From positions 384,001-448,000 of the forward strand of contig CM000432.1 of assembly GCA_000165345.1 (NCBI GenBank): a stretch of 64,000 nucleotides of DNA, read 5' to 3'. Position numbers: made by a program. This document shows, piece after piece, positions 39,001 through 42,000 of this stretch. Each line of letters begins with the position of its first letter. The stretch's first letter is position 1.

Positions 39001-42000
39001 ACAATATTATCTTCTTTCAATACATCATCAATAAATTCAGCCTCAACCAACTCATCTTGTAATGATTTAATACCTTCAATTTCTTTTGAATCAACATTAT
39101 TTCCAGACATATAATATATTGAATATCTTTTTCTTTGACCTCTCATTGTTGATGTACATAGTAATGGAGAATTATTTTGATCAGTTTCATCATCCTTTTC
39201 ATCATTATTTGATAAAATTCCTCCTTCATAATTAGATATAGATGCTCCTGTTTCTTCTAACTCCATTGGTTCATCAAGTTGTGTTATTAATGTATTTGCC
39301 TTTGCCTTCTTCCTATTATTCATCTTTAAGTGGTCGTTCAAATATAATGTATCATTCTCGATATCTTCAGTAAATTCATTCCTGCTCCTCTTGGCCTTAC
39401 GTTCTGAGGAGTTTTTCGATATAATTTCATTCTTGCTCTTTTCTTTTTCCTCCCTTTCGACTCTTTCTCTTTCTTCTCTTTCAATCCTTTCCTTTTCTTT
39501 CCTTTCAATTCTCTCTCTTTCGATCTTCTCTTTTTCTTCTCTTTCAATCCTCTCTCTTTCAATTCTTTCTCTTTCAATTCTCTCTCTTTCGATCCTCTCA
39601 TTTTCCTCTTTTTCAATTCTTTCTCTTTCTTCTCTTTCAATTCTTTCTCTTTCTTCTCTTTCAATCCTTTCCTTTTCTTTCCTTTCAATTCTCTCTCTTT
39701 CGATCTTCTCTTTTTCTTCTCTTTCAATCCTCTCTCTTTCAATTCTTTCTCTTTCAATTCTCTCTCTTTCGATCCTCTCATTTTCCTCTTTTTCAATTCT
39801 TTCTCTTTCTTCTCTTTCAATTCTCTCTCTTTCAATCCTCTCTCTTTCTTCTCTTTCAATCCTTTCCTTTTCTTCTCTTTCAATTCTCTCTCTTTCAATC
39901 CTCTCCTTTTCCTCTCTTTCAATTCTTTCTCTCTCTTCTCTTTCAATTCTCTCTCTTTCAATCCTCTCCTTTTCCTCTCTTTCAATTCTTTCTCTCTCTT
40001 CTCTTTCAATCCTTTCTCTTTCCTCCCTTTCGATTCTTTCTCTTTCTTCTCTCTTGATACATACATATCTTCTCAATGCTTTGCAAATCTGTATACATGC
40101 ATTTTTTCTCTTAATATGTCTATATAATGAAAAAAATTTAATTGAACATCTTATCATTACTAAATAGTTATTACATTTCTTCCTCAACCAATGTTTATAT
40201 AAAGAATTAATGCACTCAATTTTCCAATCCATAGAATTCTCTTGATCACATTTTTGAATAAATTGTTCAACTTTATCCAAAACATTAAATTTAAAAAATA
40301 CTCGAGTTAATCCAAGTTGGTAATCAATTTTATCCTTGTAGCCCATGTACTCCAATAATAAAGAAACAAAAAGTCTTTCATCTCTCAAGAGCAATTTTGC
40401 TTTGAATAATATGTTATTTTTATCATTTAAAGTTAAATCATTCATTGATTCTTGGTCACCAAGTTCAGTATTTATCTCAATAATTTGTTTAAAATAGTTA
40501 TAAATTTGACTGTAAGGAACTCTACAAGGATAACCATAAATCATAATATTAAGAATTTGTAAGATCCCACCAATTTGAAGCTGTTTATATACCTTTAAAC
40601 TATCAAATTTCAAAGAAATCTGCTGATTATTTGGTTTTATACATCTAATAAAATGGCTTTGAGTAGGATATAATTCATTTATTAACATATTCTGAACTTG
40701 TCTAACAAACATGCTTGAAACACTCTTATTCTTATTTGTATTCATTGGTGTTGGCACTTGATTTGTATTTTGATTAATTAAAGTTGTCAATGCATTCATT
40801 TGCAAATTATTTTTCTCAACAAAATTTGATATTCCATTTAATGACAAAATACTCTTTCTAACCAAACTTGTATCGGACATTGGACTATCATCGTTAAATA
40901 TTGCATTATTTTGATTAATATTTTCATCATCTTTGAATTGCACAGATCTTTCATCCTTATTCACTCTATTTAATAAATTATACTTAAATTTATTGATTTC
41001 TTGAATTGTATTTATTCTTGTATGTATTATTTTCTCAATATTTCCTGATAAAAAGTCTGTATTCTTTGAAATAAATTCATTACTTGTGTACTTAACGGGA
41101 CCTGCAAAATGATTTATTGTAAATGTCTTTTCAAGATTAAGTTTTTGAATTTGGATTACTCTTCCAATAGAATCAGACAAATCATTTAACTGAGGCAATA
41201 AATTATTTGTGTTCATTTCATCCTTATTATTGCATATTGATCCTCTATTTATACTCATTCTGATATTTGAATTACTTTGTAATTTATTTAGTGAATGAAC
41301 TTTATTACAAAATGCATGATCCCTATTTCCTTTCATTGGTATCTTTCCTGTTTCATCAAGAATTGATATAATATTATATGGAAGCAGGCTCAACATTGAA
41401 TTATTATACTGAAATTTCTCATAAAATGGATGTGGTGTGCAACTATTACCATCACTTCTTGATTCATTTCCATCTATTTCTGTGTTATTAAGATACTTTG
41501 GATTTACACCACTCATGACTGTACAAACGAATGACTGATGGAATAATAAATCCATTACATTTGCTGATGGAGTTGTCGAAATACTATTATTTATTCCCTC
41601 AGTTTTATATAATACTGTATCTCTATATAGTAATTGTTCCAAAAAGAAGCTATGCAGTCTTTCATTACAATAATTAATCAATAATTGTTCAAAACTATTC
41701 ACATGGTTTGGTTCCAAATCTTCAAATCCAAAAATATCCAAAATACCTATTGAATTATTTTGGTCTGATTTATTCATAGAATTTTCACTATTTTCGAATA
41801 TATTCTGTTTTAACGCTATATTTATTAACTCTACGATTAAATTAAAAATCCATTCATAGAGATATCTGGAGATACTATCTCTAGTATATATTGCCTCTGA
41901 ATACGATAGCCTTTTCTTAATTTTCACGATACTTTTTGTAGTTAATAATTCGATCAATTCTTCATTGCTCATTTTACTAAAATCTGAATCAGAATCAAAG

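What the first reader, a model, noticed from the sequence alone, without database searches (positions are those of the whole stretch)
39440..40060. Myosin tail contains a roughly 200-residue E/R/K/I repeat (ERERIEREE...) typical of a stable single alpha-helix lever extension, built from recent DNA tandem duplications
The coding sequence is a nearly pure poly-pyrimidine/poly-purine tract with 18-30 bp units. A 165-bp block is duplicated perfectly (39481..39645 equals 39661..39825), implying recent unequal crossing-over and likely copy-number polymorphism. ER/K-rich SAH domains act as rigid lever-arm or spacer extensions in myosins such as classes VI, X and M10-like. Its presence after the IQ-like segment fits that role. 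The homopurine:homopyrimidine tract could also adopt triplex (H-DNA) structure.
Basis: partly seen in the sequence, partly recalled or inferred. Interest (0 to 1): 0.5.

Follow-up and report, generated by a model that had tools for sequence, protein, structure and literature searches.

The report
Long charged single helix in Cryptosporidium myosin
The repeat encodes a roughly 206-residue, 31-nm charged rod in the tail of a Cryptosporidium parvum myosin. It was already published as the longest predicted single alpha-helix of any myosin, and what this check adds is that its length differs between isolates and species because the DNA repeat units keep being gained and lost.

Summary
Window 39438..40055 (minus strand) encodes residues 1121-1326 of a 1567-aa myosin that is identical to C. 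parvum Iowa II XP_625764.1. The tract is 85% E/R/K with no Gly or Pro. It is built from 15-bp (RERIE) and 24-bp (REERERIE-type) units.

The single alpha-helix (SAH) reading is supported:
- i/i+4 opposite-charge pairs are dense.
- There is no heptad seam, because the Ile residues sit 5 or 8 apart.
- A Waggawagga-style score matches the myosin-VI SAH controls and is absent from a myosin-II coiled coil.
- AlphaFold2 gives one 204-residue helix.

It is already published as a prediction. Simm, Hatje and Kollmar (2017) report the longest myosin SAH domains, about 200 residues, in "cryptosporidian class-26 myosins".

New detail: the array is reproduced exactly in other IOWA-lineage assemblies, including a long-read one. 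It differs in another C. parvum assembly whose flanks are 100% identical, and in every other species. The gastric species lack it.

The "IQ-like segment" and the H-DNA idea are not supported. Verdict: real, ordinary in kind and already known, with modest interest.

The parts
38712..43415 (-). Complete single-exon myosin gene (1567 aa plus stop), identical to C. parvum Iowa II XP_625764.1 / EAK87907.1 / Q5CR88
   Evidence: ORF list, translation, Pfam Myosin_head E=2.5e-132, exact-sequence look-up
40290..42929 (-). Motor domain, from the start of the Pfam match (aa 163) to the end of the converter motif GLTRVFFK (aa 1042). It contains the P-loop GESGAGKTE, switch I NDNSSRFGK and switch II DIFGFE, plus Asn-rich insertions.
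   Evidence: The closest solved motors are myosin VI (262 bits), myosin Vc (257), Va (250) and VIIa (245), which is nearly a tie.
40056..40289 (-). 78-residue neck (aa 1043-1120) between the converter and the repeat. It consists of conserved amphipathic helices and has no canonical IQ motif. Only a degenerate INSLYKHWLRK at aa 1069 and a non-conserved 'IQ' dipeptide at aa 1108-1109 are present.
   Evidence: No Pfam IQ hit at E<=10. IQ regexes are negative here and positive in controls. Invariant W/K/C/Y/W/R/N/Y positions in the orthologue alignment. AF2 gives short helices with pLDDT 40-58.
39438..40055 (-). E/R/K/I tract, aa 1121-1326 (206 aa: 95 E, 64 R, 16 K, 28 I, 2 N, 1 V). It comprises 29 units of 5, 8 or 9 aa and is the predicted stable single alpha-helix, about 31 nm long.
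   Evidence: literature
39495..40106 (-). One unbroken AlphaFold2 helix, aa 1104-1307 (204 residues). It starts in the last neck segment (KNACIQICKALRRY) and runs through the repeat.
   Evidence: helix at segment residues 105-308, with 10-residue block pLDDT of 72-97 over segment 111-290
39462..39644 (-). Copy 1 of the perfect 183-bp direct repeat (period 180 bp = 60 codons). It encodes the nine-unit (LLsssLsLL) block that begins REERERIE-KEENERIE-RERIE.
39642..39824 (-). Copy 2 of the perfect 183-bp direct repeat. It overlaps copy 1 by 3 bp because the match is longer than the period.
   Evidence: This duplication is absent from C. parvum assembly GCA_048859185.1.
38715..39437 (-). C-terminal tail, aa 1327-1567. 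It is mostly predicted disordered, has no Pfam domain, and carries short motifs invariant across the genus: SPLLCTS.MR, LQDE.VEAEF, KT..RPT.F, SL..Q..FRN.
   Evidence: No Pfam hits at E<=10, invariant columns, AF2 pLDDT about 30 with short helices at aa 1453-1466 and 1548-1566

Best explanation
The repeat is the coding sequence for a stable single alpha-helix (an ER/K-type SAH domain). It is about 206 residues and about 31 nm long, and sits in the tail of a Cryptosporidium-specific unconventional myosin. Simm, Hatje and Kollmar attribute SAH domains of this length to 'cryptosporidian class-26' myosins.

Shown here:
- Nearly every residue pairs with an opposite charge four positions along.
- The tract has no Gly or Pro.
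- The Ile residues are spaced 5 or 8 apart, so they wind around the helix and do not form a coiled-coil seam.
- The helix is predicted to continue directly from the last neck helix.

Inferred:
- The rod works as a semi-rigid spacer or lever extension. It holds the motor roughly 15-31 nm from a short, mostly disordered tail whose conserved linear motifs presumably bind cargo or an anchor.
- Because the length varies about two-fold between near-identical motors, the function probably tolerates, or makes use of, variable reach. That fits a tether or spacer better than a precisely tuned lever.

At the DNA level the array is an in-frame minisatellite of 15- and 24-bp units. It changes by slippage or unequal recombination much faster than the flanking sequence accumulates point substitutions. 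The 180-bp duplication in the IOWA lineage is the latest such event.
For: - Identity: Myosin_head E=2.5e-132; exact match to C. parvum Iowa II XP_625764.1.
- Composition and pattern: 85% charged, 0 Gly/Pro, Ile spacing only 5 or 8, best-register heptad a/d hydrophobic occupancy 0.24-0.25, resultant of hydrophobic positions 0.08-0.09, same-charge i/i+4 pairs 0.02 per residue.
- SAH score: a simplified Waggawagga-style score is above 0.25 over aa 1123-1324 (mean 0.38). Myosin-VI positive controls score 0.39-0.56 over 52-102 aa, and a myosin-II coiled-coil tail gives nothing.
- Structure: AF2 gives a single 204-residue helix with pLDDT up to 97.
- Conservation of position: a charged tract lies at the same place in all intestinal-clade orthologues with complete tails, with different units in C. 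felis and C. ryanae. These also score as SAH.
- Array dynamics: 615 nt identical in C. parvum GCA_031892065.1, and the same 1567-aa protein (one substitution, N548K) in the CPATCC long-read assembly. C. parvum GCA_048859185.1 has 0 substitutions in 1500 nt upstream and the whole 3' part, but its array is 117 nt shorter and lacks the 180-bp duplication. C. hominis has three alleles, and C. tyzzeri, C. meleagridis and chipmunk genotype I each have their own.
Against: - There is no experimental evidence for helicity or monomeric state in this protein. AF2 cannot tell an SAH from a coiled-coil strand, and its confidence falls over the last ~60 residues of the tract, the final 19 not being modelled as helix.
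- My SAH score uses my own weights, not the published matrices.
- Hydrophobic content (14% Ile/Val) is above the 9.6% average reported for myosin SAH domains.
- Net charge is -15.
- The gastric species C. andersoni and C. serpentis have only a ~22-aa charged stretch there and no SAH call, so a long rod is not essential to the protein family.
- The lack of a recognisable IQ motif leaves it unclear how rigidly the rod is coupled to the converter, so 'lever' is unproven.
Confidence: 0.75

Rival explanations
1. The tract forms a parallel coiled coil that dimerises the myosin. Charged helical myosin tails were classically annotated this way.
For: It is a long uninterrupted predicted helix with regularly spaced Ile, 14% of residues.
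Against: Ile spacing is only 5 or 8, never 3/4. Best-register a/d hydrophobic occupancy is 0.25, and the vector sum of hydrophobic positions is 0.08 at 3.5 residues per turn. The tract scores like the myosin-VI SAH controls and unlike the myosin-II rod. Simm et al. classify it as SAH.
Confidence: 0.05
2. The tract is a functionally neutral low-complexity expansion, a disordered polyampholyte tolerated in the tail with no mechanical role.
For: Length varies two-fold between isolates and species, the units differ between species, and the gastric species lack it.
Against: All alleles stay in frame. All keep the i/i+4 charge pattern and exclude Gly and Pro, even where the unit has been replaced entirely, as in C. 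felis and C. ryanae. A tract of at least 100 aa is kept in every intestinal-clade species sampled. Sequences of this type are experimentally helical in other proteins (literature cited).
Confidence: 0.1
3. The charged helix is mainly an interaction surface, for example for microtubules, nucleic acids or another protein, as described for the INCENP SAH and the CAF-1 KER helix. On this reading it is not a spacer.
For: SAH domains with binding roles are documented (abstracts of PMC4571873 and PMC10335832). The best non-Cryptosporidium matches carry the name MyoK, and MyoK is nucleus- or centrocone-associated in Plasmodium and Toxoplasma.
Against: A net charge of -15 argues against binding nucleic acid or the acidic tubulin tails. 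Rapid unit turnover and length change fit poorly with a specific binding interface. Orthology to MyoK is not established, because its bit scores (about 300-370) are no better than those of myosin V, VI and VII.
Confidence: 0.07
4. The 180-bp duplication, or the whole length variation, is an assembly artefact caused by repeat collapse or expansion.
For: The repeat does cause errors in some records. C. hominis KAL3128737.1 (1177 aa) and C. meleagridis POM82354.1 (2181 aa) both switch reading frame inside the tract: the former ends there, and the latter continues out of frame and lacks part of the following tail. POM82354.1 is also fused to the upstream NOG1 gene. I could not establish the sequencing methods of GCA_048859185.1 or of the C. 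hominis assemblies.
Against: The 615-nt array of the 2004 Sanger assembly is identical in GCA_031892065.1. The same protein, differing only by N548K, occurs in three other assemblies, including the long-read CpIOWA-ATCC. All intact alleles are in frame and are built from whole units.
Confidence: 0.04
5. The homopurine:homopyrimidine DNA is selected for, or acts through, triplex (H-DNA) formation.
For: 90% strand purine/pyrimidine asymmetry over 618 bp, and six 20-nt mirror repeats (9+2+9) within pure runs.
Against: Pure runs are at most 23 nt and are interrupted every 15 or 24 nt by ATT or ATC codons. Codon choice for E, R and K in the tract matches the rest of the gene, so the bias follows from the protein sequence.
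Confidence: 0.03

Closest known systems
SAH domains of 'cryptosporidian class-26 myosins' (Simm, Hatje & Kollmar 2017, PLoS One, PMC5378345)
   Same: Almost certainly the same object: a Cryptosporidium myosin with an SAH prediction of about 200 residues and about 300 A, stated to be the longest among 7919 myosins.
   Different: The paper gives one sentence and no accession in the main text. It does not discuss the DNA repeat structure, allele variation between isolates, absence from gastric species, or the missing IQ motif. I could not access CyMoBase to confirm the class assignment of this exact sequence.
Myosin VI medial-tail SAH (Spink et al. 2008, as cited in PMC5378345)
   Same: An ER/K-rich single helix C-terminal to the neck that extends the reach of the motor. 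My score treats both alike. Myosin VI motors are nominally the best solved matches.
   Different: Myosin VI SAH domains are about 50-100 aa, not repetitive at the DNA level, and sit after insert-2/IQ and a three-helix bundle. Here there is no Myosin-VI cargo-binding domain, the MYO6_lever match is not significant (E=0.79), there is no IQ, and myosin V and VII score almost equally.
Myosin X SAH
   Same: A charged single helix that directly continues the last neck helix and lengthens the lever (per PMC5378345). AF2 predicts the same continuity here.
   Different: In myosin X the SAH follows three canonical IQ motifs and, from my own knowledge, leads into an antiparallel coiled-coil dimerisation region and MyTH4-FERM/PH domains. 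None of these is detectable here.
Myosins with an SAH directly after the motor and no IQ (Aplanochytrium Myo31A, a Guillardia orphan; PMC5378345)
   Same: No recognisable IQ motif between the converter and the SAH.
   Different: Here a conserved 78-residue helical neck lies between the converter and the SAH. It may carry degenerate light-chain sites.
Coding minisatellites (VNTR markers) of C. parvum used in MLVA, e.g. cgd4_2350_796 with a 15-bp unit
   Same: In-frame tandem arrays with copy-number alleles between isolates. One MLVA marker is also on a 'cgd4' gene and has a 15-bp unit.
   Different: It is a different locus. The seven MLVA loci listed do not include this gene. This array mixes 15- and 24-bp units, which would complicate fragment-size typing.

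Membership tests
Stable single alpha-helix (ER/K SAH) domain | Very high content of E, K and R (about 76% in myosin SAH domains) and few hydrophobic residues | tested here: met
   85% charged. Hydrophobic content is 14%, above the 9.6% mean quoted in PMC5378345.
Stable single alpha-helix (ER/K SAH) domain | Dense i/i+3 and i/i+4 opposite-charge pairs and networks (SAH score above 0.25) | tested here: met
   A simplified Waggawagga-style score is above 0.25 over 192-202 aa (mean 0.37-0.38), comparable to the myosin VI controls. The myosin II rod is negative. The weights are mine, and the published tool was not run.
Stable single alpha-helix (ER/K SAH) domain | No heptad hydrophobic seam and no helix breakers | tested here: met
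   Ile spacing is only 5 or 8, a/d occupancy is 0.25, and there are 0 Gly and 0 Pro. AF2 gives an unbroken helix.
Stable single alpha-helix (ER/K SAH) domain | Monomeric, highly helical, non-cooperatively melting rod in solution | not testable with these tools
   Needs CD, AUC, SAXS or EM on recombinant protein. No such data were found in the literature searches.
Myosin superfamily | Myosin motor domain with P-loop, switch I and switch II | tested here: met
   Pfam PF00063, E=2.5e-132. GESGAGKTE, NDNSSRFGK and DIFGFE are present in the translation.
Class-26 myosin (Kollmar nomenclature) | Phylogenetic placement of the motor domain in class 26, a cryptosporidian class with an SAH of about 200 aa | not testable with these tools
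The assignment is inferred from the description in PMC5378345, which matches the organism, protein type and SAH length.
Class VI myosin | Insert-2/IQ lever and the myosin-VI cargo-binding domain (PF21521, PF16521) | tested here: not met
   Only Myosin_head passes in the full protein. MYO6_lever scores E=0.79 and 10.4 bits against a cut-off of 27.3. The tail has no Pfam hit. The motor scores for myosin VI, V and VII are nearly tied.
IQ-motif neck (light-chain binding lever) | At least one IQxxxRGxxxR-type motif after the converter | tested here: not met
   No PF00612 hit at E<=10. Strict and loose regexes are negative in 9 Cryptosporidium sequences and positive in the controls. Degenerate light-chain sites cannot be excluded.
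Coiled coil | Heptad periodicity with hydrophobic a/d positions | tested here: not met
   a/d occupancy 0.25, resultant 0.08; hydrophobic networks are penalised, yet the score stays high.
H-DNA / triplex-forming mirror repeat | Long uninterrupted homopurine:homopyrimidine mirror repeat | tested here: inconclusive
   Pure runs are at most 23 nt. The best mirror repeats have 9-nt arms with a 2-nt spacer. That is marginal at best, and there is no structural probing.

The most novel reading that the evidence does not exclude
The SAH is a naturally tunable ruler. An allelic series of about 100 to 206 residues (15-31 nm) exists within and between very closely related Cryptosporidium species. The myosin has no canonical IQ motif, so the charged helix would be the main lever or tether. 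On this reading the length differences have functional, possibly host- or niche-related, consequences and are not neutral minisatellite drift.
Probability: 0.15. Interest if true: 0.55.

Novelty: already known. Interest (0 to 1): 0.3.

Why it matters
This is apparently the longest predicted single alpha-helix in any myosin, in a parasite of medical importance whose non-glideosome myosins are uncharacterised. The existence of natural alleles that differ only in rod length, with identical motors and tails in C. parvum, offers a ready-made series for asking whether such helices act as levers (step size scales with length) or as tethers. The array is also a potential, though awkward, typing marker. 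It is a known trap for assembly and annotation, as the frameshifted and fused gene models in public records show. None of this changes current understanding of SAH domains.

Tried and rejected
- Pfam on the neck, the tract and the tail separately at E<=10. There was no IQ, no tail domain, and only non-significant hits: MYO6_lever E=0.79, DUF6572, His_kinase and Gp5_trimer_C.
- PDB sequence search with the tract. The only hit was a low-complexity match to 9hcj_V0, a 'WD40-like domain-containing protein', at E=9e-5. It is not informative.
- Class VI or MyoK membership. The names on distant hits suggested it. However, the scores are no better than for myosin V, VII or XI, and the class-VI tail domains are absent. 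Rejected as membership.
- Is the array a standard MLVA marker? No. The 'cgd4' marker is cgd4_2350_796.
- Literature searches by accession (XP_625764, EAK87907, Q5CR88, CPATCC_001899) returned nothing. The search for 'class-26' plus 'Cryptosporidium' returned nothing because the paper writes 'cryptosporidian'.
- Rfam scan of the window found only two tRNAs far from the locus, so there is no RNA-gene explanation.
- The ORFs at 39391..40167 (+, 258 aa) and 39338..40066 (-, 242 aa, alternative frame) are frame shadows of the repeat. The myosin frame is continuous for 1567 codons.
- H-DNA was considered and downgraded.
- I did not run a protein database search with the tract alone, because the low-complexity hits would not be interpretable.
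Full report
**What is in the sequence**

The window is AT-rich, about 19-37% GC. The finding lies inside a single 1567-codon ORF on the minus strand, 38712..43415. TRF finds overlapping tandem periods of 9, 15, 24, 63 and 180 bp over 39440..40055. The + strand of the tract is 90% pyrimidine.

The ranges 39481..39645 and 39661..39825 match at 164 of 165 bases. The real perfect match is 39462..39644 = 39642..39824, which is 183 bp at period 180 bp. 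When the same 29 repeat units are shuffled, the longest perfect direct repeat averages 49 bp and never exceeds 83 bp in 300 trials. The 183-bp identity therefore reflects a recent block duplication and not low complexity alone. The unit motif is confined to 39475..40043 within the window.

**What the gene is**

The ORF has a myosin motor domain (PF00063, E=2.5e-132) with P-loop, switch I and switch II visible in the translation. Its sequence is exactly C. parvum Iowa II XP_625764.1 / EAK87907.1 / Q5CR88, on a 1,104,417-bp contig.

Its neighbours are NOG1 (43939..45864, minus) and a Brr6-like gene (37504..38553, minus). The same order is seen in C. parvum, C. hominis, C. tyzzeri and C. meleagridis loci.

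Outside the genus, the best matches carry names such as 'myosin K' and 'myosin VI'. Their scores are no better than those of myosin V, VII or XI. Among solved structures, myosin VI (262 bits), Vc (257), Va (250) and VIIa (245) are nearly tied. No class-VI tail domain is present. I therefore do not file it as class VI. Kollmar's group places Cryptosporidium myosins with a ~200-residue SAH in their own class 26.

**Anatomy of the tract**

Residues 1121-1326 (DNA 39438..40055) comprise 95 E, 64 R, 16 K, 28 I, 2 N and 1 V. They parse into 29 units:
- 11 of 5 aa (RERIE)
- 17 of 8 aa (REERERIE, REEKERIE, KEENERIE and similar)
- one of 9 aa

These correspond to 15-, 24- and 27-bp DNA units, 14 of them distinct at the DNA level.

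The purine bias is a by-product of codon choice. E is GAA or GAG, R is AGA or AGG, and K is AAA or AAG, used in the same proportions as in the rest of the gene. The bias is interrupted at every Ile codon (ATT or ATC). Pure runs therefore reach only 22-23 nt, and mirror repeats only 9+2+9 nt. H-DNA is thus at best marginal.

**Single alpha-helix or coiled coil**

- Hydrophobic residues are spaced only 5 or 8 apart.
- Their vector sum around a helix is 0.09 at 3.6 residues per turn and 0.08 at 3.5 residues per turn.
- The best-register heptad a/d occupancy is 0.25.
- Same-charge i/i+4 pairs are almost absent (0.02 per residue), while opposite-charge i/i+4 pairs are dense. There is no Gly or Pro.

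I implemented a simplified version of the Waggawagga scoring idea: i/i+3 and i/i+4 charge pairs and networks, a penalty for hydrophobic networks, and normalisation to EEEEKKK. The algorithm is described in PMC5812594, but the weights are my own. The results are:
- Window protein: flagged over aa 1123-1324 (mean 0.38).
- Sea-urchin and snail myosin VI: flagged over the medial tail, 52-102 aa (means 0.39-0.56).
- Myosin-II coiled-coil tail: nothing flagged.

AlphaFold2 was run on aa 1000-1567 with an 11-sequence alignment. It gives one unbroken helix from aa 1104 to 1307, with 10-residue block pLDDT of 72-97 over segment 111-290. The helix starts in the last neck segment. The C-terminal tail is mostly low-confidence. 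AF2 cannot establish the monomeric state, and it does not model the final 19 tract residues as helix.

**Prior knowledge**

Simm, Hatje and Kollmar (PLoS One 2017) surveyed 7919 myosins. I found no experimental work on this protein.

**The neck**

Between the converter (GLTRVFFK, ending at aa 1042) and the tract lie 78 conserved residues. Pfam IQ does not match them even at E<=10. Strict and loose IQ regexes find nothing in nine Cryptosporidium sequences, yet they detect IQ motifs in the myosin VI, yeast Myo4 and Plasmodium MyoK controls.

The lone 'IQ' dipeptide (aa 1108-1109) is replaced in C. canis, C. felis, C. ryanae and C. andersoni. 'After the IQ-like segment' is therefore not supported. 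Degenerate light-chain sites remain possible.

**Comparative evidence and polymorphism**

A charged repeat sits at the same position in every intestinal-clade orthologue with a complete tail. Both its length and its units differ:

| Species / record | Charged tract (aa, unless stated) | Units |
|---|---|---|
| C. parvum, window / IOWA | 221 | 29 |
| C. parvum KAL5369271.1 | 182 | 23 |
| C. hominis | 145, 116, 116 | 18, 14, 14 |
| C. meleagridis | 132 | 18 |
| C. tyzzeri | 102 | 12, all but the first (9 aa) of 8 aa |
| Chipmunk genotype I | 140 | 15 |
| C. canis | 173, 108 | 21, 12 |
| C. felis | 209 | different ~23-aa unit |
| C. ryanae | 173 | 12-aa unit |
| C. andersoni, C. serpentis (gastric) | ~22 | no SAH call |

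The two measures differ slightly. The figures come from a 20-residue sliding window, which takes in a few flanking residues. The motif-bounded tract in the window protein is 206 aa.

Within C. parvum, the 615-nt array is base-for-base identical in GCA_031892065.1. The whole protein differs only by N548K in three other assemblies. One of these carries the CPATCC locus tag of the long-read CpIOWA-ATCC assembly.

In contrast, C. parvum GCA_048859185.1 has no substitutions in 1500 nt upstream or in the whole downstream part of the gene. Its array is 117 nt shorter, has a single copy of the 60-codon block, and has a different arrangement before it. The array therefore changes faster than point substitutions accumulate. 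Slippage and unequal recombination cannot be distinguished with these data.

**Function (inferred)**

The rod would place the motor and neck 15-31 nm from a 241-residue tail. That tail has no known domain but carries four short motifs invariant across the genus. The motors are 94-100% identical while the rod length varies two-fold, and the gastric species manage with almost none. I therefore favour a semi-rigid spacer or tether with tolerant length over a finely tuned lever. This is inference only.

**Verdict**

The feature is real and correctly interpreted in its main point. It is already known as a prediction. The additions here are the corrected coordinates, the unit structure, the allele series, the absence from gastric species, the lack of a canonical IQ motif and the weak case for H-DNA. 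Interest is modest.

Noticed in passing
Related records P0126 (C. hominis KAL3128737.1, 1177 aa) and P0127 (C. meleagridis POM82354.1, 2181 aa): Both public gene models go out of frame inside the repeat. P0126 ends in ...ERERKRKN. P0127 reads on in another frame (EKKKGLREKKERELKE...), lacks part of the following tail, and is also fused to the upstream NOG1 gene. These look like assembly or annotation errors caused by the array.
   Followed up: partly
window 38715..39437 (-), aa 1327-1567: The myosin tail after the helix has no Pfam domain and is mostly low-confidence in AF2. It carries four short motifs invariant across all Cryptosporidium orthologues, gastric species included: SPLLCTS.MR, LQDE.VEAEF, KT..RPT.F and SL..Q..FRN. 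These are candidate cargo- or anchor-binding linear motifs.
   Followed up: partly
window 43939..45864 (-): The NOG1 ORF from its first ATG is 641 aa. Annotated Cryptosporidium NOG1 proteins are 692 aa, and the Iowa II record is a 681-aa 'partial'. The gene therefore probably has an upstream exon or an earlier start that this ORF call does not capture.
   Followed up: no
window 13563..20375 (+): A 2270-aa ORF stands out at about 37% GC against a background of about 25%. It encodes a SNF2-family chromatin remodeller with chromo and bromo domains.
   Followed up: partly
window 3546..3617 (-) and 4166..4237 (+): Two divergently oriented tRNA genes about 550 bp apart are the only Rfam matches in the window.
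   Followed up: no
window 39391..40167 (+) and 39338..40066 (-): ORFs of 258 aa and 242 aa lie over the repeat in other frames. They are open only because the low-complexity repeat lacks stop codons, so they are shadow ORFs, not genes.
   Followed up: yes
window 21598..25584 (+) and 46697..51100 (+): Two large ORFs (1328 aa and 1467 aa) have no Pfam match at E<=1e-5. They may be Cryptosporidium-specific proteins.
   Followed up: no
PDB 9hcj chain V0, residues 1123-1260: The only solved chain matching the tract (E=9e-5) is a 1704-aa 'WD40-like domain-containing protein' with a similar charged stretch. If that stretch is resolved, it would show how such a helix looks in a real complex.
   Followed up: no
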